Virus record (IMG/VR): IMGVR_UViG_3300039286_000350
Location: 2,984-66,983 of that record
From: a virus
Reading direction: 5' to 3' (one strand)
DNA: 64,000 bases
The notes below the pieces were generated by a model. It did no database searches, was not told the origin of the DNA, and worked only from the letters and a program-made list of their open reading frames with translations. Shown piece after piece: positions 285-9,164 of this stretch. Made by a program: the position numbers and the translations under genes. The first letter of the stretch is position 1. Every line of letters begins with the position of its first letter.

Positions 285-456
285 ATGAAGTTTGGAGACC
301 TCTACTGGATCCTTCGGTTTCTCCAACGGTGCCCAGGGTCGAGGAAGAACTCACTGAGTCGGGGAGGAGAGGGACCCAGTAAGCTGCTTGATCCAGCCCG
401 TTAGAGTAATACCGATATGAGTCCCACAGTAGAAGATCTCGTTCAGGATCTTTTAG

Positions 457-531
457 AGCCTCCGGCAGGATTTGAACCCGCGGCCAGTGGGGTAGAAACC
501 CACCGCTCTATCCAGACTGAGCTACGGAGGC
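457..531 (-). tRNA. tRNA-Arg(TCT)
   Basis: GCCTCCG acceptor; GTGGG-TT TCT AC-CCCAC. Confidence 0.93.
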
Positions 532-600
532 AGGTGGAGAGCAGCCGTGTGGGCATCCCAGCTCAGCCACGACAGCCTCAATCCAGGTCCCTACTCTCCA

Positions 601-674
601 GAGCCTCTGGGTGGATTCGAACCACCGACCATGACCTTCGGAAGGTCACACTCTGTCCACTGAGTTACAGAGGC
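601..674 (-). tRNA. tRNA-Arg(CCG)
   Basis: TGACC-TT CCG AA-GGTCA; GGTTCGAATCC. Confidence 0.93.
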
Positions 675-824
675 TTAATACGGGGCCGGGACCACGACGC
701 GGAGTGCCTGCCGTAAAGTCCCGGCTCCTACCCTAACCCCTTTCACTGCACTCCCTTATCCGGGGTGCGGTGCAGCTACTTGGTGACCCTCCGCAACACT
801 CCGCTTTAGCTCGGGTCCTGGGCA

Positions 825-899
825 GCACCTCCGGCTGGATTCGAACCAGCGACATCCGGTTTCGTAGACCGGCACTCTGTCCTGCTGAGTTACGGAGGT
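825..899 (-). tRNA. tRNA-Arg(ACG)
   Basis: CCGGT-CT ACG AA-ACCGG. Confidence 0.93.
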
Positions 900-903
900 A
901 AGT

Positions 904-1109
904 TCGTCTGGCAGATTACGGGTTCTTGACAGCGCACCCTAGTGGGTGATATCAAGTCAGGTTCTGATGTAACTGATCTGCTCCTCCACCATTCAGTGCG
1001 AAAGGAGCCATCCAATCGCAGGTGGTGTGCTTTGGCGAGTGGTCTGCAGACCACAGTGCCCGTAGAGCGGGTAAGGCTTTCCGCACCGGCCGCTTTACAC
1101 TACAGACGA
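904..1109 (-). ncRNA. Candidate structured ncRNA, unknown family
   Basis: Spacer closed by TCGTCTG/CAGACGA; internal hairpins; 16-bp palindrome GTGGTCTGCAGACCAC. Confidence 0.4.
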
Positions 1110-1110
1110 G

Positions 1111-1182
1111 CTGCTCCCCAGGGATTCGAACCCCGACCTTCATGGTCCAGAACCATGCGTCCTACCGTTAGACTAGAGAGCA
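1111..1182 (-). tRNA. tRNA-Gln(CTG)
   Basis: U1-A72; CATGG-TT CTG GA-CCATG. Confidence 0.93.
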
Positions 1183-1215
1183 ATGAAGGGACGTTGGATT
1201 AACCTACCAGGACAC

Positions 1216-1370
1216 GCAGTTAGCATACTAAGGTGGATCACACCGGTTCGGGTTCTTTGCGTCAAACAGGATAGCCCGGGCCTGACCGCCAGATTCACCT
1301 TTGATCCGCCGTTTCCGCATCGTGCGCCCGAAAGCGTGTTTTTGTACTCCGGCTGGGTTTCACCAACTGC
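1216..1370 (-). ncRNA. Candidate structured ncRNA, unknown family
   Basis: Terminal helix GCAGTTGG/CTAACTGC; internal AAGGTGAATC/GATCCACCTT; GAAA-capped hairpins. Confidence 0.45.
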
Positions 1371-1391
1371 CACTCCAGGGCAACGCCCCAG

Positions 1392-1466
1392 TAGCCCCTG
1401 CGGGATTTGAACCCACGCTTGACGGCTGAGAACCGCCTGTCCTAGGCCTGACTAGACGAAGGGGCC
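1392..1466 (-). tRNA. tRNA-Glu(CTC)
   Basis: GGCGG-TT CTC AG-CCGTC. Confidence 0.92.
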
Positions 1467-1585
1467 AAGTTGAAGGACAGCTAGCTTGGTGACATCGTGG
1501 TACAGTCGCCCACATTTCGCCTGATTCGGCGGTCACTTCAGCCCAGTCCACCCTGATCATGGGGCAGCCAGTTGTCGCTGTCCAG

Positions 1586-1659
1586 TGGTGCCTCTTGGGA
1601 TCGAACCAAGGACCTTCCCCTTATCAGAGGGATGCACACACCTGCCGTGCTCAGGCACC
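1586..1659 (-). tRNA. tRNA-Ile(GAT)
   Basis: TCCCT-CT GAT AA-GGGGA; acceptor GGTGCCT/AGGCACC. Confidence 0.9.
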
Positions 1660-1810
1660 AAATTCGGGTGAAGGCCACGTGATAGCTGGAATATAGCCAC
1701 CTTCACCCGGGGATTCCGTCTTTTTTGCTGGACACCTGCTAGATCTCACTACTCTACAGTAGCCACCAGGGCTTTTCTCGCAGGATTAAGCCGAGACCAC
1801 ATCCAGCAAA

Positions 1811-1883
1811 TGCTTCTCCCAGGATTCGAACCTGGACCGCGATCCTTTTCAGGGATCCGCTCTACCGTTGGAGCTAGAGAAGC
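1811..1883 (-). tRNA. tRNA-Phe(GAA)
   Basis: GATCC-CT GAA AA-GGATC. Confidence 0.93.
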
Positions 1884-2061
1884 AAGATGAAACCGCGAGG
1901 CCCACTCTAATGACATTTTCTGCACCGTCACAATGGACGAGCTTGCCTGAGTCAGCCATATTTGGGGCTCTGCCACTGGACTCCTCGAGGTAGCTACCCA
2001 GCGGGGCACTTTTGACCGTGAGCATTAGCCTAGGGCAGCACTCACGTCGTGGTCTCAGGGC

Positions 2062-2205
2062 TTATTTATGACTACCATCACGGATCTTATCCGCAACGAT
2101 GTCCAGCCCGACTGCATCGGCTACAGCAGCAGCTGCCTTAGCCGGGACGCCTTTGACGTTGATAATCGTCTTTCCGGACTCAGTTTTGAGAATTAGTGTG
2201 AACAT
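2062..2205 (-). CDS. Small hypothetical protein (47 aa, MFTLILKTESGKTIINVKGV...)
   Basis: ATG to TAA reading frame with purine-rich upstream sequence, inside the tRNA array; below the ORF-track cutoff. Confidence 0.55.
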   Translation of the reverse strand: MFTLILKTESGKTIINVKGVPAKAAAAVADAVGLDIVADKIRDGSHK

Positions 2206-2239
2206 GCTTCTTTATCGACCTCCGTCACAAGAAGCTTAG

Positions 2240-2312
2240 TGGAGAAGGACGGGATCGAACCGTCAACCTCCTGCTTGCAAGGCAGGTGCTCTTCCGATTG
2301 AGCTACTCCCCC
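2240..2312 (-). tRNA. tRNA-Ala(TGC)
   Basis: G3-U70; CCTGC-CT TGC AA-GCAGG. Confidence 0.94.
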
Positions 2313-2317
2313 ATTAA

Positions 2318-2381
2318 CCGGTGTTTTACCAATTAAACTACGATGCCGAAGCATCGACAGGACTTGAACCTGCATCTCCGG
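2318..2381 (-). ncRNA. Circularly permuted tRNA-like unit B (T arm before D arm; acceptor stem capped by UUCG)
   Basis: CCGG-AGAT-GCAGG TTCAAGT CCTGT-CGATGC TTCG GCATCG-TA-GTTT AATTGGTA AAAC-A-CCGG. Confidence 0.75.
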
Positions 2382-2384
2382 AGT

Positions 2385-2457
2385 TTCGGCGCTCTAGCCA
2401 GCTGAGCTACAGCAGCTACGTTGGCTGCTAGTGGGATTCGAACCCACGACCTCCGAA
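2385..2457 (-). ncRNA. Circularly permuted tRNA-like unit A
   Basis: TTCGG-AGGTC-GTGGG TTCGAAT CCCAC-TAGCAGC-[CAACGTA]-GCTGCTG-TA-GCTC AGCTGGCTA GAGC-G-CCGAA. Confidence 0.78.
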
Positions 2458-2467
2458 GTCGTTGAGG

Positions 2468-2556
2468 CGGAAGGCCGAGGAGTCGAACCCCCACCGGCGA
2501 TCGCCGGTGACCGGTTTTCAAGACCGGAGAGCAGACCAACCTGCTCTGGACCTTCC
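2468..2556 (-). tRNA. tRNA-Ser(TGA) with 8/4 acceptor/T-stem fold
   Basis: Acceptor GGAAGGTC/GGCCTTCC (8 bp); T stem GGGG/CCTC (4 bp); 6-bp D stem; long variable arm; loop CT TGA AA; G73. Confidence 0.85.
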
Positions 2557-2565
2557 GTGAAGTTT

Positions 2566-2644
2566 GTGGGAGTCGGGAATCGAACCCGAGCCACCCATTG
2601 CCTTATGCAAGGCGGGTATGCTACCAACGAACACCGCTTCCCAC
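2566..2644 (-). pseudogene. Aberrant tRNA-like element with expanded anticodon arm
   Basis: Good T arm TCGGG TTCGATT CCCGA and D arm; bulged acceptor; anticodon region CCCGCCTTGCATAAGGCAATGGG has no 7-nt loop. Confidence 0.55.
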
Positions 2645-2699
2645 GCCCGTACCACGTTGCAACGTGTCGCCCGCTAAGGCAGTTAGGGCTTTGGCCAAG

Positions 2700-2786
2700 C
2701 GGATGGAGTAGGATTCGAACCTACGGATCCAACAAAGGATCGGCGAGTTAGCAACCCGCTGCATTCGGCCTCTCTGCCATCCATCC
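2700..2786 (-). tRNA. tRNA-Ser(GCT)
   Basis: Canonical 7/5 fold, long variable arm; GCGGG-TT GCT AA-CTCGC. Confidence 0.93.
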
Positions 2787-2947
2787 GTGCACCTGCGTCC
2801 GTTCGGGCTCCGTGGGATATCCCTTGGTTCCTACTTGAGACGCAGGATCTACCTCATCAGCCTAGGGGTAAGGGTTCCCTAGGAGCATCCGTTCGCCGGG
2901 GCAGACTTACTATCTGCACTGATAAGAAGAGCTATCCTAGGTACTAG

Positions 2948-3032
2948 GCCCCCGCTCTACCATTGAGCTACACGCCGTGTAGGCGATCACCTTGGCCGGC
3001 GTGGCCGGGCTCGAACCGGCAACAGTCGAGGC
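2948..3032 (-). ncRNA. Circularly permuted tRNA-like unit C (Pro-type acceptor, encoded NCCA)
   Basis: GCCTC..GCCGG TTCGAGC CCGGC-CACGCCG-G-CCA-[15 nt]-CGGCGTG-TA-GCTC AATGGTA GAGC-G-GGGGC. Confidence 0.8.
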
Positions 3033-3084
3033 TGTTCCCCAGGATTTCAAGGAGGGCGTATCTAGAATCCGCCAGTCCCTAAAG

Positions 3085-3156
3085 CTGCACACCCAGGATT
3101 CGAACCTGGAACCGTCTCCTTAACAGGGAGCTGCACTGCCGTTGTGCTAGTGTGCA
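3085..3156 (-). tRNA. tRNA-Asn(GTT)
   Basis: U1-A72; loop CT GTT AA. Confidence 0.9.
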
Positions 3157-3278
3157 ATGTTCTGGGCACGGAGGAGGCCATTGGAGCCGCTGGCAAACGA
3201 GTCAGTACCTCTGTCCTAGCTGCATGAACGCATCACCAGCAGTGCCAACCTGTGGCCGTTCACTGGAGCCGCCCAGAG

Positions 3279-3362
3279 TGCCTTCAACAGGAGTCGAACC
3301 TGTACGCTCTTTCGAGCACTGGTCCCTCAGACCAGGGTGTCTACCAATTCCACCATGAAGGC
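3279..3362 (-). tRNA. tRNA-Leu(GAG)
   Basis: CTGGT-CT GAG GG-ACCAG; long variable arm. Confidence 0.93.
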
Positions 3363-3514
3363 AAATGTTTGCGTCAGTATTGTCCGTTTCTAGGTAGGCA
3401 ATACACTACGATCAAGATCGTCCACGCTCGGAGATGAGTTAATATCCCACCACCCCGCTTGTACGCGGATTTCACGGGTACCGAGTACGATTCTCAAACG
3501 CGTATCCGACGCAG

Positions 3515-3595
3515 TGTGGGATGATGGACTCGAACCACTCCCCGAAGGACCTGGTTTACAGCCAGGCTACAGGTTCCAACCTGCTTACATCCCAC
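3515..3595 (-). tRNA. tRNA-Tyr(GTA) with 8/4 fold and elongated D arm
   Basis: Acceptor GTGGGATG/CATCCCAC; T stem GTGG/CCAT; CCTGG-CT GTA AA-CCAGG; A73. Confidence 0.8.
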
Positions 3596-3718
3596 AAGTT
3601 TTCAGTGGACGCCCTTATGGTCGGGTCTGTTTGATGAAATGAACTTATCCCTTACCGCGACCACGCGAAGGGTCCACCGTTAAGAACTGGCCCAATCTAG
3701 GGAGGATCAGGGCCAGAG

Positions 3719-4106
3719 TGGAGGCGGTGGGAGTCGAACCCACGTGCACGGACCGGATTGCCATCAGAGTTCTAGCAGCTTGTCATCGTGGGATCAGAAC
3801 CAGGAGGGCTACGGTGACTACCCTCTCTGCCCTGGCTTACTACGCACAGGTGCACCACCCCGTTATTACGTCCGGGGGCAGACGTACATGTACCTCAATC
3901 GGTTCCCCACTTCTGTTGCCCCGTGTGAGGAGACGGCGCAGCAGCTGTTAGGCTACTGCGAGTGCGCCCGAGTTGGCGAAGGCCTCAGCCTCTGCCAGCC
4001 CGTCCGCAACGTATGCATCGCCTTGTATAGGCTTGAGCCTTTAGGTCTGCTCATACCGCTGCACTGATGGGTCTCCATTGACCATGTCGAAGCCAATTTC
4101 GCCCCC
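3719..4106 (-). ncRNA. ssrA: tmRNA; predicted tag (A)GDAYVADGLAEAEAFANSGALAVA at 3948-4022
   Basis: 5' GGGGGCGAAATTGGCTTCGAC; 3' GTGGGTTCGACTCCCACCGCCTCCA; G3-U70; internal reading frame ending LAVA-TAA. Confidence 0.93.
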
Positions 4107-4201
4107 ATGTTTACGGGTTACCCCTTCCCGTCCCTGGTGAGACTCACCTCGCCAGCAAAGCTGACGCCAGGCCCTCTAACCAATACGTGCTGCATGTACA
4201 G

Positions 4202-4275
4202 TCGGCGTGGTAGGATTCGAACCTACGATTACATGGTCCCAAACCATGGGTGTTACCAGGCTACACTACACGCCG
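4202..4275 (-). tRNA. tRNA-Pro(TGG)
   Basis: C1-G72; CATGG-TT TGG GA-CCATG. Confidence 0.93.
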
Positions 4276-4308
4276 AGAACGCCGGTTTTGCTCTCCCAGA
4301 TCCGGTAA

Positions 4309-4470
4309 CTGGGAACCACCCGGTCCGATTGTCGCGACCGCACAAACCAGGACACGAGGAGCTTGCTCCACGTGGCTTGTGGTTAATCAAGTGGTCGGGG
4401 CTAAGGAGGGCAGTATCCGGATGTCCGACCATGCTAGCCTTATTACCCCTCGCAATCAAAGCGATCCCAG
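4309..4470 (-). ncRNA. Candidate structured ncRNA, unknown family
   Basis: Closed by CTGGGATCGC/GTGGTTCCCAG; internal TGGTCGG/CCGACCA and other helices. Confidence 0.4.
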
Positions 4471-4501
4471 TGTACTACTGTATCATCTCACTGATCACTA
4501 G

Positions 4502-4574
4502 TACCCATCCAGGGACTCGAACCCCGAACCTACGGCTTGTAAAACCGTTGCTCTCCCAATTGAGCTAGACGGGC
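4502..4574 (-). tRNA. tRNA-Val(TAC)
   Basis: ACGGT-TT TAC AA-GCCGT. Confidence 0.92.
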
Positions 4575-4577
4575 AAG

Positions 4578-5150
4578 TTGTGTCGGGTAGTGGCCTCCGG
4601 TGCGGATCAGCACCCTATCTACCTCCGAGCAGTGGAGTAACCACCGGCCCGACACGTGCTGGCCTAGCCTGACCATAGCCAGCTCGATATGCCCTTCATC
4701 AGGAAGGTATGTGTTTTTGAGTGGTATCTCCACAGCCCAGCAGAATCTAGCTCCCTGGGCAATGCTGACCGGCGTAGATCGGCCTTCTTGCGAAGTTGGC
4801 CCGTGGTTTAACCTGCTTACCGAGCAGCAGGATCAGTCGTGGACGCCACAACGCCCCACTGACATGTCGCTTTTCAGGTCTCATGTGGTTACCTGCGGCT
4901 TTCACGGGTTGCTGCATGTCACCATGCATACTTTCGCCCGAGTCGACTACCGGCGGATCGAAGTGGTGGACGCCGCCTTCTGGCTGCGGATGGATAGTCC
5001 GCACCAGCCAGTCTTATTCTCCGCTGTGGGAATCCCTTCCCGCACGGTCTTGTCGCCACCCTCTAGCGTTATTCCCGTACTACCTGGTCGACCCTTAAAC
5101 GGGTTGAGAGGCCTCCGGGGACTACTATGGGCCGTGGCAAGCGCCCTGGT
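4578..5150 (-). ncRNA. Large structured ncRNA, probably ROOL-like
   Basis: ~570 nt between two tRNAs with many helices; motifs GAGAATAAG..GGTGCGGACTATCC..GAAAGTATGCATGGTGACATGCAGCAACCC..GAGAC..GTCCAC match my recollection of the ROOL consensus (not searched). Confidence 0.55.
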
Positions 5151-5154
5151 ACAG

Positions 5155-5241
5155 TGCCTCCGACAGGAATCGAACCTGTACACGCCTTTCGGCGCACTAG
5201 GGCCTAAGCCTAGCGTGTCTGCCTAATTCCACCACAGAGGC
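5155..5241 (-). tRNA. tRNA-Leu(TAG)
   Basis: CTAGG-CT TAG GC-CCTAG; long variable arm. Confidence 0.93.
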
Positions 5242-5381
5242 AAGGGATCATCGCTGCGGTTCTAACCCGCACCTTCTCCGTTCCCGGGCTGCTCTACATG
5301 AGCTTACGATGAGATCTTGGGAAGCCAATGTGCATTGACCTCCTCACCGAACCGTTTCCAGCACAGTTGTGTCGTTCGGTA

Positions 5382-5455
5382 TGCCTGTCCCTGGGATCGA
5401 ACCAGGACTGCCCGGATTTTAAGTCCGGTGCCTCTACCGATTGGGCTAGACAGGC
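5382..5455 (-). tRNA. tRNA-Leu(TAA), short variable arm
   Basis: CCGGA-CT TAA AA-TCCGG; variable region GCAGT; A73. Confidence 0.85.
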
Positions 5456-5459
5456 GAAG

Positions 5460-5765
5460 ATTCCAGGGTCTAGGACTTTCGCTGGGCAGCGTATCGCTCA
5501 TCGTTCAGCATGAGCCGAGCCACGGGAGGCCACCTGGTTGGCCAAGTGCACATGGGAGTAGTTCGTTCGGGCTACTGTTACCTCTGGGACGCTCCCCAGA
5601 CCCATGGCGAAGTTTTGAGTGGAAGGCCCTCTCCCTGGTCGCCGCCTCTACAGAGAGTCAACATCACCGATCCCTACGACCGGCTAGCACGGTATGGTTA
5701 CCGCTGATGAAGAGAGGTTGGTACCCTTCCATCCCCGGATTGAATATGTCTGGCTCCGGGAGGCC
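5460..5765 (-). ncRNA. Candidate ~300 nt multi-hairpin ncRNA
   Basis: Hairpins CTGGG/CCCAG, GTAG/CTAC, GGCCA/TGGCC, GCTCAT/ATGAGC; no convincing ORF. Confidence 0.4.
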
Positions 5766-5770
5766 AGTAG

Positions 5771-5857
5771 TGCCCAAAGTAGGAGTCGAACCTACACGCC
5801 CCTTTCGGGGACACCGGGTTTTGAGTCCGGCGCGTCTACCAGTTCCGCCATTCGGGC
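5771..5857 (-). tRNA. tRNA-Leu(CAA)
   Basis: Loop CT CAA AA; long variable arm. Confidence 0.92.
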
Positions 5858-5910
5858 TATTCAGTTGTTACTATTCTATCGGCCCCACTTCAGGTAACTT
5901 GAGTGGGAAG

Positions 5911-5983
5911 TGCTCCCGCCAGGGTTCGAACCTGGGACCGTCGGATTAAGAGTCCGCTACTCTACCAGCTGAGTTACGAGAGC
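5911..5983 (-). tRNA. tRNA-Lys(CTT)
   Basis: Loop CT CTT AA. Confidence 0.93.
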
Positions 5984-5993
5984 ATATGTGAAG

Positions 5994-6075
5994 AGGGCCA
6001 GCGGGATTCGAACCCGCTCCCGGTCACATCATGAACAGACCGGTTAGCCTACGGTTGGACGCCCAACCTGGACCC
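5994..6075 (-). pseudogene. Non-canonical tRNA-like element
   Basis: T arm GCGGG TTCGAAT CCCGC; bulged acceptor GGGTCCA/TGGCCC; hairpins GGTTGG/CCAACC and CCGGTC/GACCGG with a 12-nt loop. Confidence 0.5.
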
Positions 6076-6089
6076 ATGTAGTTTTTAGG

Positions 6090-6163
6090 AGCCGGATACA
6101 GGAATCGAACCCGCGGCCTTCGCTTTACAAGAGCGCTGCTCTACCAACGTGAGCTAATCCGGC
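6090..6163 (-). tRNA. tRNA-Thr(TGT)
   Basis: Loop CT TGT AA. Confidence 0.93.
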
Positions 6164-6175
6164 TTGTACCGAGCC

Positions 6176-6203
6176 AATAAAAAGGCTCCCTTCTTTGGGA
6201 GCC
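6176..6203 (-). terminator. Intrinsic terminator
   Basis: GGCTCCC AAAGAA GGGAGCC TTTTTATT. Confidence 0.75.
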
Positions 6204-6394
6204 CGGTCCAGCTACGTTGGGAAGGGCTCCCTAACTCGTCATTTGTCCTGGCTCCTGATCAAAGGACAGGACTCGACTAATCCTCGCCCAATTTGGCTTG
6301 GAGGCCGATTCCGTCTTATGACAATACAAGTGTTTCATGCTGTAAGTATCCGTACCTGAAACTCCAGGTCAGTTTAATTTGAAAAATAGAGGAT

Positions 6395-6418
6395 GTGGTG
6401 GGCCTATTATAACACCAC
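6395..6418 (-). promoter_or_regulatory. Extended -10 promoter (TG-T-TATAAT) inside an inverted repeat
   Basis: GTGGTG-TTATAATAGGCC-CACCAC. Confidence 0.55.
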
Positions 6419-6550
6419 TCATTACTAAGCAGGGGCCAGGCTGTCCTCTGGCAACCTCTTCCGTCTAGGGAAGAATTGAGGCTGGACTAAAATGATGTTA
6501 GTGGGTGGCCGTCCATTTCATCCCCGCAGCCAATTGGGGAACCTCGTGAA

Positions 6551-6634
6551 GTGCCAGTCCAGGGACTCGAACCCCGGTCAGTTCCCCTCAGAGTTCCGTC
6601 GTCACCATCTGTCTAACCGCCTGGTGAGGTTGGC
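6551..6634 (-). pseudogene. Degenerate tRNA remnant
   Basis: T arm CGGGG TTCGAGT CCCTG; mismatched acceptor; no paired anticodon stem. Confidence 0.45.
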
Positions 6635-6649
6635 CCTCGGCGTGACAGT

Positions 6650-6826
6650 GGAGCGCCCGGCATTCTCTCCGGTTCGCTGCAATCCAGCGTAACTGGCATG
6701 TTGGGCCAGCTCCAATGCGACTCACAGGTAATCCCATGGACGGAGGGCACTGGCCCATCCGGCACGATGCAGGAAGTCTCGATACGCCGAAGCGTGGGAC
6801 CTCTCGACGCTTAATGCCGGGAGAAC
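6650..6826 (-). ncRNA. Candidate ~175 nt structured ncRNA at the head of the RNA island
   Basis: CCCGGCATT/AATGCCGGG long-range helix; ACGC TTCG GCGT; GGGCCAG/CTGGCCC. Confidence 0.55.
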
Positions 6827-6929
6827 TTTGACTTGGATCGTCTCTACGGTGGGAAGTTCAGTCTTGAGGAACTTCCTTGGTCTCCGTTCTCAAGTACATT
6901 ATCGACAGCACCACAAAGAACTTTAGTCT

Positions 6930-8399
6930 CTAAACTCCTACCTTGGTTCCCCTGTTAGCTTCGAAGTCATCAAACACTTCATTTACCGACTGTCTGTCAC
7001 TATGCTCTTCCTCAAAAGACCGAAGGCTAGCAAACTTGGAAGCCCTAATCCTACCGATGTAATCCCGTCTAGAAGATAGCTTGGAGGCAACCTCAGCAGC
7101 AGTCAAAGACGTATAATCAGCAAGCATTAGGTGTGATGCCGCATCGGCACCTAAGTCATCTAGAGGCCACAACATCAAGTCCGCAAATTCCCTCAGAAGC
7201 GCTTCTGCCAGGGCTGCTGGATACACCGCAAACGGTAGTATACTGCCCAAGAAGGAGGCCCAACTCCAGTGGCTGATGAATAGAGGGGTCGGTTCAGGCA
7301 AGACAGCAGCAATGTTCTGTGATCCCCAGTCTTTCCATCCTAAAGCCTGAGACATTGTATACAATCTTATTTTTGACCCAACTGTCCAGACCAAAGCATA
7401 AAAGAAGGGGTCTGTGGACAAGGCGCCACCAAGTTCCCAAGTCGCCACAGTCGTGTATTCATCAGGTGTAAACTGCAACCCTTCGAATTCATCTATGGCG
7501 AAGAACAGACTTTCTCTCGTAGCAGTCGCTCCAGAGAAGATGGACCTGATTTCAAATGGGGTAAGAGTAGAAGCCTGAGCTACGCCGCAGAACGTTCGAG
7601 TTGTGCCTCGGGCACATGGTCCAGTATCAGAATTAGAAGCATTAGAGGCGCCAGACCAACCTGACTCTCCAGAAGCTAGCTGACTTGGATTAGGGAAATA
7701 AGTTCCGAGGGTCGAGGCTCTCTCGAACATCACCCCGGTGAACTGGAAGGTAACCGTAGTCGCTCCAGTCTGTTCAATGCATAAGCGCTGAGCTTCGAGG
7801 TTAGCCGCCGTCCAGGTTACATTCAGGCGTTTCCATTCTCCAACTGTGGTTGCATTCACACTTGCAGCCTGAACTTCACCATTGGTTGATTTCCTAATAA
7901 CCAATCGGGCACCCGCTCCGGTTGAGGCCGTAAGCCGAACAAACACAGAGGCCGTGTAAGTCCTACCAACAACGAGACCCTCACCACCAATAGGCAGTGC
8001 GAACATCACGCGGTCAGGGTTACCATTTCCAGATGCTTGAATCGCTGTCACCACACCAGCCAATTCAGCGGGGAGCACACCTTCTGGAGCAACTTTCGTT
8101 GGTCCGGATTCTAGACCACTCCCCGTCCAACCAGTCGTGTCATTGGCAGCTGTGGGATTCGTAACAAGATTGGTTCGCGTGCTCCAAGCGGTATCAATAT
8201 AATCGCTGTCACCATCAAAAGCAGCAGTGGCCAGTCCAGGGGTAATCCCAACGTCAAGAGCGGCGTCACCTTTCAGCGAGGCATCTGCAACTGTTACGCT
8301 ACCCTGATTTTTCAGTGAGCTCGACACAGTCGAGGGGAGCAGCGCGTAAAGAGGAGAGGCGCCAAGTAACGCAGATGTTAGAAGAGTTGGGTTCCTCAC
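6930..8399 (-). CDS. LamG/concanavalin-like protein with inserted carbohydrate-binding domain
   Basis: AFDGDSDYI and FAVYPAAL LamG-like motifs; NLVTNP..GW CBM-like motif. Confidence 0.65.
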   Translation of the reverse strand: MRNPTLLTSALLGASPLYALLPSTVSSSLKNQGSVTVADASLKGDAALDVGITPGLATAAFDGDSDYIDTAWSTRTNLVTNPTAANDTTGWTGSGLESGPTKVAPEGVLPAELAGVVTAIQASGNGNPDRVMFALPIGGEGLVVGRTYTASVFVRLTASTGAGARLVIRKSTNGEVQAASVNATTVGEWKRLNVTWTAANLEAQRLCIEQTGATTVTFQFTGVMFERASTLGTYFPNPSQLASGESGWSGASNASNSDTGPCARGTTRTFCGVAQASTLTPFEIRSIFSGATATRESLFFAIDEFEGLQFTPDEYTTVATWELGGALSTDPFFYALVWTVGSKIRLYTMSQALGWKDWGSQNIAAVLPEPTPLFISHWSWASFLGSILPFAVYPAALAEALLREFADLMLWPLDDLGADAASHLMLADYTSLTAAEVASKLSSRRDYIGRIRASKFASLRSFEEEHSDRQSVNEVFDDFEANRGTKVGV

Positions 8400-8449
8400 A
8401 ACTATGATACGTAACAGACCAGCGCCTTATCAACAGCAGGGTTGAAATC

Positions 8450-9100
8450 TCACCCACTCAGATATTTCTTCCCTTTATTCGACACTGACTTAGCGACAGT
8501 AGATCCGTACAACTCATGGATCAACTCAGGACGGCCTGAGTTGATAGCGATTTTGTCCAGCAAAGTCAGCGTCACGTGTTTCAACTGTCGTCCGTCCTCA
8601 GTGATCCCACCCGCGATGCGGCGGATGCGTGACTCATCAATCTGCAGGGCAGTCCCAGTTGCAGAAGAGCCGTGTGCTCGGATAAGCTCATCAACGTAAG
8701 CGATCAGAGGACCGGCAGGGAGTTTCTCTTTCAGACGTGAAGCGATTGAGTCATCATAACCCTCACGCAACTTTTCATTGATCCTATACTTCTCTCTTTT
8801 CCGCTCCCATTGTTCTGGAGTCATTCCCTCTTGCCAAGCTCTGCGCCGGTCTCTTTCGCAGTCCTTACACTTGGAAGAGGGGTAATACTTTATTTCCCCA
8901 TCAGCTAAACAGTGCTTTTTCAGCACGAAGTTCCCAGCCACAGGAAGCCAGCGGTCGCAAGGACCGTTGCACTTCTTTCGGAGGACGTCGGGAGCTCCAT
9001 CATCACTGAGCTCTCGTTCGCGTCTCTCCCTTGCCGTACGTTTCTTCGACTCCGAGATCTTCGCCCGTAGCTCGGGTGTCATTTGGGGAGGGACGCCCAT
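8450..9100 (-). CDS. Putative DNA-binding protein (NUMOD3-like N-terminus, Cys cluster, C-terminal HTH-like region)
   Basis: TPELRAKISESKK; KKCNGPC..SKCKDC; helix pattern ALQIDESRIRRI. Confidence 0.55.
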   Translation of the reverse strand: MGVPPQMTPELRAKISESKKRTARERRERELSDDGAPDVLRKKCNGPCDRWLPVAGNFVLKKHCLADGEIKYYPSSKCKDCERDRRRAWQEGMTPEQWERKREKYRINEKLREGYDDSIASRLKEKLPAGPLIAYVDELIRAHGSSATGTALQIDESRIRRIAGGITEDGRQLKHVTLTLLDKIAINSGRPELIHELYGSTVAKSVSNKGKKYLSG

Positions 9101-9164
9101 GCCTAAATTGATCCTCGACAGCAGGCATCGCGCTCAACGAGAATACAACTTTTAGCAGGAGTTC

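What the first reader, a model, noticed from the sequence alone, without database searches (positions are those of the whole stretch)
2948..3032. Third permuted tRNA gene, with Pro-type acceptor and an encoded NCCA
Seen: the 3' half ends CACGCCG-G-CCA, followed by a 15-nt linker with a small hairpin, then the 5' half CGGCGTG-TA-GCTC..GAGC. The 7-bp acceptor is identical to that of tRNA-Pro at 4202-4275. A 5-bp anticodon stem (GGGGC/GCCTC) can form across the ends. The canonical tRNAs I checked here do not encode CCA. This matches the layout of a permuted pre-tRNA that is circularised at the anticodon loop and reopened at the acceptor. Alternatively, cleavage alone would give a chargeable two-piece tRNA without an anticodon (inference).
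Basis: partly seen in the sequence, partly recalled or inferred. Interest (0 to 1): 0.85.

Follow-up and report, generated by a model that had tools for sequence, protein, structure and literature searches.

The report
Anticodon-less tRNA mimic in phage tRNA array
The flagged stretch is a real tRNA look-alike with its halves in swapped order and no anticodon loop, most likely not a decoding tRNA but a phage copy of the YrlA-type "tRNA mimic" RNAs, here with a built-in CCA end and no known partner protein in sight.

Summary
Observation confirmed. On the minus strand, 3045-2934 encodes, in order: closing-stem strand, T arm, 7-nt acceptor 3' strand, G, CCA, 15-nt linker, acceptor 5' strand, D arm, closing-stem strand. 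It has no anticodon loop. Rfam's YrlA model matches the core (36.3 bits, below the 69-bit cut-off), and two sister modules lie at 2318-2460.

The permuted-pre-tRNA reading is poorly supported. There is no bulge-helix-bulge motif, and the 108-kb record holds no RtcB, RNA ligase or splicing endonuclease.

It matches the published behaviour of Mycobacterium smegmatis YrlA. I also found a phage-wide pattern: of 63 distinct closed-acceptor modules beside DUF7873 genes, 42 carry N-CCA at tRNA positions 73-76 (chance 1/64).

Full YrlA membership is not shown. The Ro60-binding motif is absent from the stem, and the record holds no TROVE, DUF2828 or DUF7873 gene. About 47 kb of the apparent parent contig is unseen, so a partner cannot be excluded.

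I found no sequence homologue of this unit, and no RNA ends could be read. The scan has noted this kind of RNA many times on other DNA. Verdict: a new variant of a known kind, of moderate interest.

The parts
2934..3045 (-). Whole element (unit 3): a stem-closed, circularly permuted tRNA-like module without an anticodon loop
   Evidence: Sequence; fold; Rfam YrlA local hit at 2953-3025, 36.3 bits
3038..3045 (-). Closing stem, 5' strand AUCCUGGG. It pairs with 2934-2941. It is followed by GA, then AC (pairs with GU at 2943-2944), then A.
   Evidence: RNAfold MFE and centroid. Predicted only; there are no homologues to test covariation.
3028..3032 (-). GCCUC, equivalent to the anticodon-stem 3' strand (tRNA positions 39-43). 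It pairs with GGGGC at 2948-2952.
   Evidence: Sequence; fold; ARAGORN cloverleaf of the in-silico re-permuted sequence
3021..3027 (-). Variable region GACUGUU. Its last U can form the A15:U48 Levitt pair.
   Evidence: Alignment to the YrlA model. The 15:48 pair covaries in 61 of 63 related modules.
3004..3020 (-). T arm GCCGG-UUCGAGC-CCGGC
2993..3003 (-). Acceptor 3' strand CACGCCG, G73, and encoded CCA (2995-2993)
   Evidence: Sequence. N-CCA at this position occurs in 42 of 63 related phage modules.
2978..2992 (-). 15-nt capping linker with a 4-bp mini-hairpin. By inference it serves both as the 3' trailer after CCA and as the 5' leader for RNase P.
   Evidence: Fold. Loop lengths in the related class range from 5 to 78 nt, median 13.
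2971..2977 (-). Acceptor 5' strand CGGCGUG. The predicted RNase P site lies between 2978 and 2977.
   Evidence: 7/7 pairs with 2997-3003; identical to the tRNA-Pro(UGG) acceptor. The cleavage site is inferred from M. smegmatis YrlA (PMC4201824).
2953..2970 (-). U8-A9, D arm GCUC-AAUGGUA-GAGC (with G18 and G19), and G26
2948..2952 (-). GGGGC, equivalent to the anticodon-stem 5' strand (tRNA positions 27-31)
2934..2947 (-). CUA-GU-A followed by the closing-stem 3' strand CCUAGGAU. The first 7 nt (CUAGUAC) look like an anticodon loop, but they lie inside the closing helix.
2381..2460 (-). Sister module, unit 1: T arm, 7-bp closed acceptor stem (UAGCAGC/GCUGCUG, loop CAACGUA, no CCA), D arm
   Evidence: YrlA model 39.5 bits; parser. 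Other metatranscriptome contigs carry the same T and D arms with different closed hairpins.
2318..2384 (-). Sister module, unit 2: T arm, 6-bp acceptor stem capped by UUCG, D arm
   Evidence: YrlA model 33.4 bits over the full model length; fold
4201..4275 (-). Canonical tRNA-Pro(UGG), which shares the identical 7-bp acceptor stem but has A73 and no encoded CCA
3066..3073 (-). GGCGGAUU, one mismatch from the YrlA 5' motif GNCGAAN0-1G. It lies in a separate hairpin about 20 nt upstream of the closing stem. Its relevance is unresolved.
   Evidence: Sequence; Rfam consensus positions 3-10; fold

Best explanation
Unit 3 is a non-decoding tRNA mimic with the YrlA architecture: T arm, loop-capped acceptor stem, D arm, and RNA ends that pair where the anticodon arm would be. 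It lies inside the phage's 30-tRNA plus tmRNA array, with no promoter or terminator of its own.

Shown:
- the parts and their order;
- the tRNA elbow nucleotides (U8, A14, A15:U48, G18G19, T-loop UUCGAGC);
- two sister modules in the same array;
- the same design in other phages' tRNA arrays.

Inferred mechanism:
1. Processing of the flanking tRNA-Asn and tRNA-Ser releases the spacer RNA, which folds into an L shape.
2. Because the acceptor stem has the full 7 bp plus N-CCA, RNase P cuts between 2978 and 2977.
3. By textbook knowledge the encoded CCA blocks RNase Z, so 3'-exonucleases trim the 15-nt linker back to CCA.
4. The result is a nicked, two-piece, anticodon-less tRNA look-alike. It is held together by the 7-bp acceptor stem and the roughly 15-bp closing stem, and it has a free CCA-3'OH.

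Such an RNA cannot decode. It most likely acts as a tRNA-shaped ligand, either a tether or a decoy, for a protein that recognises the acceptor/T-arm/elbow half of tRNA. Candidates are a partner protein not present in the 108 kb seen here, or host enzymes.
For: - Sequence anatomy.
- Rfam RF02553 alignment of T arm, acceptor stem and D arm: 36.3, 39.5 and 33.4 bits for the three units, against 20.4 bits for a tRNA junction.
- Closing stem.
[quoted passage not shown] M. smegmatis YrlA, the one with a 7-bp stem, is cut by RNase P and receives CCA in vivo (PMC4201824).
- Class-level evidence computed here: 53 of 59 phage DUF7873 loci carry closed modules on the gene's strand. There are 63 distinct modules. 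Of these, 42 have N-CCA at positions 73-76, 28 of those 42 have U at -1, 61 of 63 have GG in the D loop, and 61 of 63 have a covarying A15:U48 or G15:C48 pair.
- Further CCA-bearing modules lie in tRNA arrays of other phages. G098 is a complete 125-kb genome whose module also has G73-CCA and A at -1, and it has no TROVE, DUF2828 or DUF7873 gene.
- 30 of the 31 canonical tRNA/tmRNA genes of this phage lack CCA, so the CCA in unit 3 is not array background.
Against: - No sequence homologue of unit 3 was found, so its own stems have no covariation support.
- No RNA ends are available. Only assembled contigs could be laid on the region, and the second study's contigs do not cover unit 3.
- The match to the YrlA model is local and below the gathering score.
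- The MFE is not better than shuffles (z = -0.61).
- N(-1) is A rather than the commoner U.
- One CCA in three sister units could be chance (about 5%).
- The function of the tRNA-like domain is unknown even for the studied YrlA RNAs.
Confidence: 0.6

Rival explanations
1. It is a true Y RNA. The closing stem binds a Ro60-type ring protein (TROVE, or the DUF2828 type seen in other phages), encoded by the host or in the unseen part of the phage. The tRNA-like head then tethers a second factor, as proposed for YrlA.
For: - The architecture is the same as YrlA.
- Phage G005 has two such modules about 1.3 kb from a TROVE gene.
- G001, G002 and G025 have modules together with DUF2828 genes.
- The protein next to the array sits on a 154,964-nt contig in the protein index, so about 47 kb appears to be missing from the record.
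- GGCGGAUU at 3073-3066 is one mismatch from the Ro-binding motif.
- The closing stem is followed by GA-ACAGC, 5 of the 7 bases of the ACAGCAA tag.
Against: - The 108 kb holds no TROVE, DUF2828 or DUF7873 gene.
- The GNCGAA motif is not in the closing stem.
- The tag is incomplete (the invariant AA/GA is missing) and is not enriched in the array.
- The gene just upstream of the array is a lectin-like protein, not a ring protein.
- The complete phage G098 carries a near-identical design without any of the three proteins.
Confidence: 0.15
2. It is a processing signal only. The tRNA shape recruits RNase P (and 3' trimming) to cut the long Asn-Ser spacer and release or destabilise neighbouring spacer RNAs, as with mascRNA-type tRNA-like elements. 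The mimic itself would have no further role.
For: It is embedded in a polycistronic array without a promoter or terminator of its own. The 297-nt spacer holds several other hairpins. The 7-bp stem plus CCA makes a good RNase P substrate (PMC4201824).
Against: A processing signal alone would not need the complete elbow (G18G19, Levitt pair) or a long closing stem. The flanking tRNAs already supply cleavage sites. Units 1 and 2 have capped stems that are poor RNase P substrates.
Confidence: 0.08
3. It is an inert leftover of a tandem tRNA duplication: the 3' half of one copy, a spacer, and the 5' half of the next copy.
For: The acceptor is identical to that of tRNA-Pro in the same array. The 7 nt after GGGGC look like an anticodon loop. 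Chen et al. warn that tRNA dimers mimic YrlA hits (PMC4201824).
Against: - The D and T arms differ from those of tRNA-Pro and from every other tRNA of the array.
- All four stems are intact.
- A further 10 pairs outside the tRNA part close the molecule.
- Three such units occur here, and dozens occur in other phages with conserved N-CCA.
Confidence: 0.08
4. It is a genuine circularly permuted tRNA gene. The ends would be cut and ligated to make an anticodon loop, and the acceptor then opened, giving a decoding tRNA.
For: The order of parts fits. In-silico re-permutation, using the 7 natural bases after GGGGC, gives a cloverleaf that ARAGORN accepts, with loop CUAGUAC (U33, A37). Wang et al. 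raise this possibility for YrlA-like RNAs (10.1101/312249).
Against: - There is no bulge-helix-bulge motif, and the would-be cut sites lie in or beside helices.
- The record holds no splicing endonuclease, RtcB or RNA ligase, and no such pathway is known in bacteria.
- The product would combine a Pro-type acceptor, G73 and an AGU anticodon.
- Units 1 and 2 cannot give a proper loop.
Confidence: 0.04

Closest known systems
YrlA (Y RNA-like A), Rfam RF02553: the bacterial and mycobacteriophage Y RNAs that partner Ro60/Rsr (Chen et al. 2014, PMC4201824; Wang et al. 2018, 10.1101/312249). The M. smegmatis YrlA is the closest member.
   Same: - Order of parts: T arm, loop-capped acceptor stem, D arm.
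- tRNA elbow nucleotides and the Levitt pair.
- RNA ends paired in place of the anticodon arm.
- Like M. smegmatis YrlA, a full 7-bp acceptor stem. That RNA is cut by RNase P and ends in CCA.
   Different: - The CCA is encoded, not added.
- There is no GNCGAAN0-1G motif in the closing stem.
- No TROVE gene lies within 4 kb or anywhere in the 108-kb record.
- The score is 36 bits against a 69-bit gathering cut-off, and only model positions 26-82 align.
- It sits inside a phage tRNA/tmRNA array.
Closed-acceptor tRNA mimics downstream of DUF7873 (PF25283) genes in phages. I found no paper on these; earlier notes of this scan describe them, and I re-derived them here.
   Same: 5-bp T stem, 7-bp acceptor stem, N73-CCA directly after it, a short single-stranded linker, U8-R9, and a D arm with GG. 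The T stem GCCGG/CCGGC is the same as in one DUF7873 locus (L331).
   Different: The record has no DUF7873 gene, and none lies upstream of the unit. The conserved non-tRNA parts of that roughly 370-nt RNA are absent (nhmmer hits only the tRNA-like parts). The linker is longer and not A-rich, and N(-1) is A.
Circularly permuted tRNA genes of Cyanidioschyzon merolae and other algae (Soma et al. 2007, as cited in 10.1101/312249)
   Same: The 3' half is encoded upstream of the 5' half, and the acceptor ends are joined by a short linker that must be opened.
   Different: Those genes carry a bulge-helix-bulge at the leader/trailer junction and use the eukaryal/archaeal splicing endonuclease and ligase to form a real anticodon loop. 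None of these features is found here.
Two-piece (circularly permuted) tmRNA, Rfam RF04321
   Same: T arm, acceptor 3' strand, CCA, an intervening segment and the acceptor 5' strand are encoded in that order, and the RNA is opened by processing.
   Different: Unit 3 has a full D arm and no G3:U70 pair. There is no tag reading frame with a typical ending downstream. ARAGORN and Rfam report no permuted tmRNA here. The phage already has a one-piece tmRNA at 3718-4106.

Membership tests
YrlA (RF02553) | tRNA-like domain in the order T arm, closed acceptor stem-loop, D arm, with tRNA elbow nucleotides | tested here: met
   cmscan alignment to model positions 26-82, 36.3 bits, E about 1e-7 per genome. 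U8, A14, A15:U48, G18G19 and T-loop UUCGAGC are visible in the sequence.
YrlA (RF02553) | Score at or above Rfam's gathering cut-off (69 bits) over the whole model | tested here: not met
   36.3 bits in a local match only
YrlA (RF02553) | Long stem formed by the 5' and 3' ends | tested here: inconclusive
   A 5+2+8-bp interrupted stem is predicted. No homologues exist to test covariation, and the z-score is -0.61.
YrlA (RF02553) | GNCGAAN0-1G (Ro60-binding) motif near the 5' end | tested here: not met
   The motif is absent from the closing stem (regex). The nearest sequence, GGCGGAUU at 3073-3066, lies in a separate upstream hairpin.
YrlA (RF02553) | Encoded within about 4 kb of a Ro60/TROVE gene on the same strand | tested here: not met
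   No PF05731 match in the 108-kb record. The neighbours are tRNAs and a lectin-like ORF. About 47 kb of the apparent parent contig is unseen.
YrlA (RF02553) | Bound by Ro60/Rsr | not testable with these tools
   Needs immunoprecipitation
Circularly permuted tRNA gene | 3' half upstream of the 5' half, joined through the acceptor ends | tested here: met
Circularly permuted tRNA gene | Bulge-helix-bulge motif where leader and trailer pair | tested here: not met
   The fold shows a 1x3 internal loop, 2 bp, a 2x1 loop and 8 bp.
Circularly permuted tRNA gene | Splicing endonuclease and RNA ligase available | tested here: not met
   No PF01974 or PF01139 match. The PF09414 hit is an ATP-dependent DNA ligase. 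The host is unknown.
Circularly permuted tRNA gene | Joined product is a plausible decoding tRNA | tested here: inconclusive
   ARAGORN accepts the re-permuted sequence as tRNA(AGU) with a Pro-type acceptor and G73. By my knowledge this combination is not expected for a bacterial tRNA.
DUF7873-linked tRNA-mimic RNA (undescribed class) | Closed 7-bp acceptor stem followed by N-CCA and a short linker | tested here: met
   42 of 63 distinct modules have N-CCA. Unit 3 passes the same parser.
DUF7873-linked tRNA-mimic RNA (undescribed class) | Lies just downstream of a DUF7873 gene | tested here: not met
   No PF25283 match in the record. The G031 locus served as positive control.
DUF7873-linked tRNA-mimic RNA (undescribed class) | Shares the non-tRNA parts of the roughly 370-nt RNA | tested here: not met
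   An nhmmer profile of three such RNAs matches only the tRNA-like parts of the array.
DUF2828-linked 'ACAGCAA'-tagged phage RNAs (undescribed class) | Closing stem followed by NN-ACAGC(A/G)A, with a DUF2828 gene in the genome | tested here: not met
   Unit 3 has GA-ACAGC-CU (5 of 7). The tag is not enriched in the array. No PF11443 match. Positive controls were G001, G002 and G025.
Two-piece permuted tmRNA | G3:U70 pair, reduced D arm, tag reading frame, detection by ARAGORN or RF04321 | tested here: not met
   G3:C70 and a full D arm. ARAGORN reports only the one-piece tmRNA. No RF04321 hit at the unit.

The most novel reading that the evidence does not exclude
This phage, and others such as the complete genome G098, make a Ro60-independent, two-piece, anticodon-less tRNA mimic with a genuine CCA-3'OH end. 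The mimic acts on host machinery that reads the acceptor end of tRNA. It could be a decoy for defence toxins that modify or cut tRNA 3' ends, a sponge for CCA-adding or processing enzymes, or a chargeable minimal tRNA borrowing the tRNA-Pro acceptor.
Probability: 0.12. Interest if true: 0.75.

Novelty: new variant of a known kind. Interest (0 to 1): 0.42.

Why it matters
tRNA mimics of the YrlA type have been studied only as partners of Ro60, and the job of their tRNA-like head is still unknown.

This unit has a full-length acceptor stem and an encoded CCA, yet sits in a phage whose own tRNA genes lack CCA and, as far as the record goes, has no Ro60-type gene. The same N-CCA occurs in two thirds of 63 related phage modules. 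Together these facts suggest that exposing a tRNA-like 3' end is part of the function.

That idea can be tested directly with an RNase P assay, 3'-end mapping and charging assays. It also bears on why phages pack non-decoding RNAs into their tRNA arrays.

This single instance adds little beyond what the class already shows. It has no homologues and no expression data of its own.

Tried and rejected
**Searches for homologues of unit 3**
- Megablast and blastn against GenBank phages found nothing, or only D-arm matches to tRNA-Met.
- An exact 25-mer search found nothing in IMG/VR or in JGI metagenomes.
- A looser acceptor pattern in metagenomes returned 120 hits. All are GC-rich non-tRNA DNA, none with a T loop, so that scan was wasted.

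**Searches for relatives of the phage**
- The neighbouring 489-aa ORF has no relatives.
- The major capsid protein is only 30-36% identical to actinophage capsids and to two IMG/VR contigs.
- The phage's own contig is withheld from look-up, so the roughly 47 kb beyond the record could not be read.

**RNA evidence**
- Only assembled contigs were available. The source metatranscriptome covers the array at a flat depth.
- A second study holds exact copies of 2458-2713 and part of the tmRNA, but not unit 3.
- No ends or joints were informative.

**Partner and machinery searches in the record, all negative**
- TROVE, DUF2828, DUF7873, RtcB, CCA-adding enzyme, splicing endonuclease and integrase.
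- Pfam on 30 mid-size and 10 large ORFs.
- The two unexplained large ORFs near the array and in the tail region look like a lectin-like protein and a beta-helix protein.

**Readings considered and rejected**
- Permuted tmRNA: no G3:U70 pair and no detection by ARAGORN or Rfam.
- attP-type tRNA 3' fragment: the record has no integrase, and a 5' half follows the 3' half.
- Ordinary tandem-tRNA junction: the acceptor strands are fully complementary, and neither half has the rest of a tRNA.
- The weak RF00005 hit at 2893-2977 (20 bits) has no T arm and no pairing acceptor.

Full report
**Setting**

The window is bases 2984-66983 of a 108,108-base IMG/VR virus record labelled 'provirus', 87% complete. 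All genes run on the minus strand.

The record starts inside a 9-kb RNA island with 30 tRNA genes and a tmRNA gene, all on the minus strand. GC content is about 52%. The capsid protein is only about 36% identical to capsids of Gordonia, Mycobacterium and Microbacterium phages. No close relative exists in GenBank phages or IMG/VR.

The record has no integrase. The protein next to the array is on record on a 154,964-base contig. The 'provirus' record was therefore probably trimmed at the tRNAs, and about 47 kb is unseen. That contig is withheld from look-up.

**Observation**

Read on the minus strand, the finding is exactly as described:

| Part | Sequence | Coordinates |
|---|---|---|
| Anticodon-stem 3' strand equivalent | GCCUC | 3032-3028 |
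| Variable stretch | 7 nt | 3027-3021 |
| T arm | GCCGG-UUCGAGC-CCGGC | 3020-3004 |
| Acceptor 3' strand | CACGCCG | 3003-2997 |
| Position 73 | G | 2996 |
| 3' end | CCA | 2995-2993 |
| Linker with 4-bp mini-hairpin | 15 nt | 2992-2978 |
| Acceptor 5' strand | CGGCGUG | 2977-2971 |
| Positions 8-9 | UA | 2970-2969 |
| D arm | GCUC-AAUGGUA-GAGC | 2968-2954 |
| Position 26 | G | 2953 |
| Anticodon-stem 5' strand equivalent | GGGGC | 2952-2948 |

- The acceptor is identical, 7 of 7, to that of tRNA-Pro(UGG) at 4201-4275 and to no other gene of the array. The D and T arms match no particular tRNA.
- No tRNA gene in the window encodes CCA. In the whole record only tRNA-Ile(UAU) does.
The RNA ends are therefore closed by an interrupted helix of about 15 bp, and no anticodon loop exists.
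- The MFE is not better than shuffles (z = -0.61) and does not draw the cloverleaf arms. Thermodynamics alone says little.

**What it matches**

With relaxed thresholds, Rfam's YrlA (Y RNA-like) model aligns 2953-3025 over its T arm, acceptor stem-loop and D arm. The score is 36.3 bits, with E about 1e-7 for the genome.

Two more hits lie in tandem at 2381-2460 (39.5 bits) and 2296-2401 (33.4 bits). These are the 'first and second' permuted units. Unit 1 has a 7-bp stem capped by CAACGUA, and unit 2 has a 6-bp stem capped by UUCG.

A plain tRNA-tRNA junction in the same array scores 20.4 bits. All three units score below the 69-bit gathering cut-off, because the Ro60-binding stem of the model does not align.

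The tRNA tertiary set is present. Each unit has U8, A14, G18G19 and a T loop. The 15:48 Levitt pair covaries among the three units: A:U, G:C, A:U.

**What the literature says**

- Chen et al. 2014 (PMC4201824) describe YrlA as T arm, acceptor-like stem-loop and D arm mounted on a stem formed by the RNA ends. They found it next to Ro60 genes in more than 250 bacteria and in 22 phages.
- Wang et al. 2018 (10.1101/312249) solved the domain. [quoted passage not shown]
- M. smegmatis YrlA is the one with a 7-bp stem. It is cut by RNase P in vitro. In vivo it is cleaved, nibbled and given CCA.
- Chen et al. kept only hits within 4 kb of Ro60 and discarded hits overlapping tandem tRNAs. Ro60-less copies inside tRNA arrays would have escaped them.

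**Membership tests**

The YrlA 5' motif GNCGAAN0-1G is not in the closing stem. GGCGGAUU at 3073-3066, one mismatch from the motif, sits in a separate upstream hairpin.

The record has none of the following:
- TROVE;
- DUF2828, a Ro60-like phage family named in earlier scan notes;
- DUF7873;
- RtcB;
- CCA-adding enzyme;
- tRNA splicing endonuclease.

Its only ligase-type hit is an ATP-dependent DNA ligase. The ORF just upstream of the array is lectin-like.

The unit therefore works like YrlA in design, but membership in the Ro60-Y RNA family is not shown. The missing 47 kb and the unknown host leave that question open.

**The same design in other phages (computed here)**

A pattern scan, followed by YrlA-model searches of 99 phage records, separated true closed-acceptor modules from tRNA junctions. 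All modules examined lie in tRNA arrays on the tRNA strand. They fall into four contexts:

1. **Beside TROVE.** G005 has two modules with GAAA and UAAG caps and no CCA.
2. **With DUF2828.** G001, G002 and G025 encode DUF2828. Their modules, and many sister RNAs, carry the tag [stem]-NN-ACAGC(A/G)A.
3. **Downstream of DUF7873.** The G031 module lies 460 nt downstream of a DUF7873 gene.
4. **Orphans.** The complete 125-kb phage G098 has none of the three proteins. Its module reads AUUGCAC-G-CCA-UUUUA-GUGCGAU, which makes it the closest analogue of unit 3.

Unit 3 has GA-ACAGC-CU after its closing stem. That is only 5 of the 7 tag bases, and the tag is not enriched in this array. I do not file it under context 2.

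**The CCA**

I fetched 59 DUF7873 loci from IMG/VR. I then applied a strict parser requiring a 5-bp T stem with G53:C61, 7 of 7 acceptor pairs, and U8-R9.

- 53 of the 59 loci have at least one module. The parser found none on the opposite strand or in shuffles.
- Among 63 distinct modules, 42 have CCA directly after one 'discriminator' base. Chance is 1 in 64 per module.
- Of those 42, 28 have U and 10 have A at position -1. Loops run 5-78 nt, with a median of 13.
- Features the parser did not require also hold. GG is in the D loop in 61 of 63, and A15:U48 or G15:C48 in 61 of 63.
- On the phage's own genome the parser returns only unit 3 and unit 1.
- Unit 3 (G73, CCA, 19-nt loop, A at -1) lies inside this distribution. 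Its T stem GCCGG/CCGGC equals that of locus L331.

N-CCA in the capping loop is thus a selected feature of this class. Together with the M. smegmatis data, it argues that the loop is opened to expose a tRNA-like 3' end. In this phage 30 of 31 canonical genes lack CCA, and 24 of the 30 scored show C-U at ARAGORN's 3' end. The CCA of unit 3 is therefore not background.

By textbook knowledge of RNase Z in Bacillus subtilis, an encoded CCA blocks RNase Z. The linker would then be removed by RNase P on one side and by exonucleases on the other.

**The permuted-pre-tRNA reading**

I joined, in silico, the 5' half, the next seven natural bases (CUAGUAC) and the 3' half. ARAGORN accepts the resulting cloverleaf as tRNA(AGU).

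Several facts argue against this product being made:
- Those seven bases lie in the closing helix.
- There is no bulge-helix-bulge.
- The record holds no endonuclease or RNA ligase.
- No such pathway is known in bacteria.
- The product would combine a Pro-type acceptor with G73 and an A34 anticodon.
- Units 1 and 2 cannot give a proper loop.

I give this reading about 4%. ProRS charging of the nicked form is unlikely, because ProRS identity depends on A73 and on G35/G36 (my knowledge, not tested).

**RNA evidence**

One soil metatranscriptome holds the whole region at a flat depth and is probably the source sample. A second study holds exact 256-258-nt contigs over 2458-2713 and part of the tmRNA, but nothing over unit 3.

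Other contigs in these runs carry unit 1's T and D arms around different closed hairpins. This is covariation evidence for unit 1 only. Ends cannot be read from contigs.

**Verdict**

- The element is best read as a non-decoding tRNA mimic of YrlA design. It is probably opened by RNase P into a two-piece, CCA-ended form.
- The partner and the role are unknown.
- It is a new variant of a known kind.
- The scan has noted this kind of RNA many times on other DNA.
- The points particular to this instance are the orphan context, the encoded CCA in a CCA-less array, and the tRNA-Pro acceptor, which remains unexplained.

Noticed in passing
window 2469-2556 (-) and 3514-3595 (-): A tRNA with anticodon UGA (Ser) scores 54.3 bits with Rfam's tRNA-Sec model, above its cut-off, and ARAGORN misses it. 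The tRNA-Tyr also scores 35.7 bits with the Sec model. Both seem to have unusual arm lengths.
   Followed up: no
record 297-9146 (window up to 6163), all tRNA genes: In 24 of the 30 genes scored, the bases straddling ARAGORN's 3' end are C-T, so the discriminator is followed by C-U. Only tRNA-Ile(UAU), at record 430-503 and outside the window, encodes CCA. This uniform 3' context may be a shared processing signal.
   Followed up: partly
whole record: The protein at window 6930-8399 is on record on a 154,964-base contig, while the IMG/VR record is 108,108 bases and starts inside the tRNA array. There is no integrase. The 'provirus' label looks like a trimming artefact, and about 47 kb of the phage may be missing.
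   Followed up: partly
window 4575-5153 (-): A 579-nt gap without ORFs lies between tRNA-Val and tRNA-Leu. Rfam gives no ROOL or other hit there, even at E up to 10. By contrast, phage G002 (L034:5852-6477) has a clear ROOL RNA (323 bits) inside its tRNA array.
   Followed up: no
window 2458-2713 and 3787-4044: A soil metatranscriptome from a different study holds exact copies of just these two stretches: the Ser tRNA region and part of the tmRNA, at contig depths of 33-38. The phage, or a near-identical one, therefore occurs elsewhere, and these RNAs may be abundant.
   Followed up: partly
L158, L164, L136, L138, L143 (phages G002, G025, G001): Phages that encode a DUF2828 protein carry many small RNAs that begin with a stem strand followed by (U/A)ACAGC(A/G)A. 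Some of these RNAs have tRNA-mimic heads. All three records with the tag had DUF2828, and neither of the two without it did.
   Followed up: partly
L327-L385 (59 IMG/VR loci): DUF7873 genes in phage contigs are followed, on the gene's strand, by one or two closed-acceptor tRNA mimics in 53 of 59 loci. 42 of 63 distinct modules carry N-CCA in the capping loop. I found no paper mentioning DUF7873.
   Followed up: yes
window 6183-6204 (-): An 8-bp GC-rich hairpin followed by a T run, terminator-like, sits just upstream of the first tRNA of the array (tRNA-Thr, 6088-6163). The array may therefore start a new transcription unit.
   Followed up: no
window 3718-4106 (-): The phage tmRNA has a predicted 24-residue tag ending in LAVA. 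No SmpB gene was noticed in the ORFs scanned.
   Followed up: no
record 68-108 kb (L133-L135): The phage encodes its own replication and repair set: clamp loader, beta clamp, RecA, DnaB-like helicase, uracil-DNA glycosylase, pyrimidine-dimer glycosylase, AP endonuclease, and a 645-aa ATP-dependent DNA ligase with a weak ParB-like N-terminal match.
   Followed up: no
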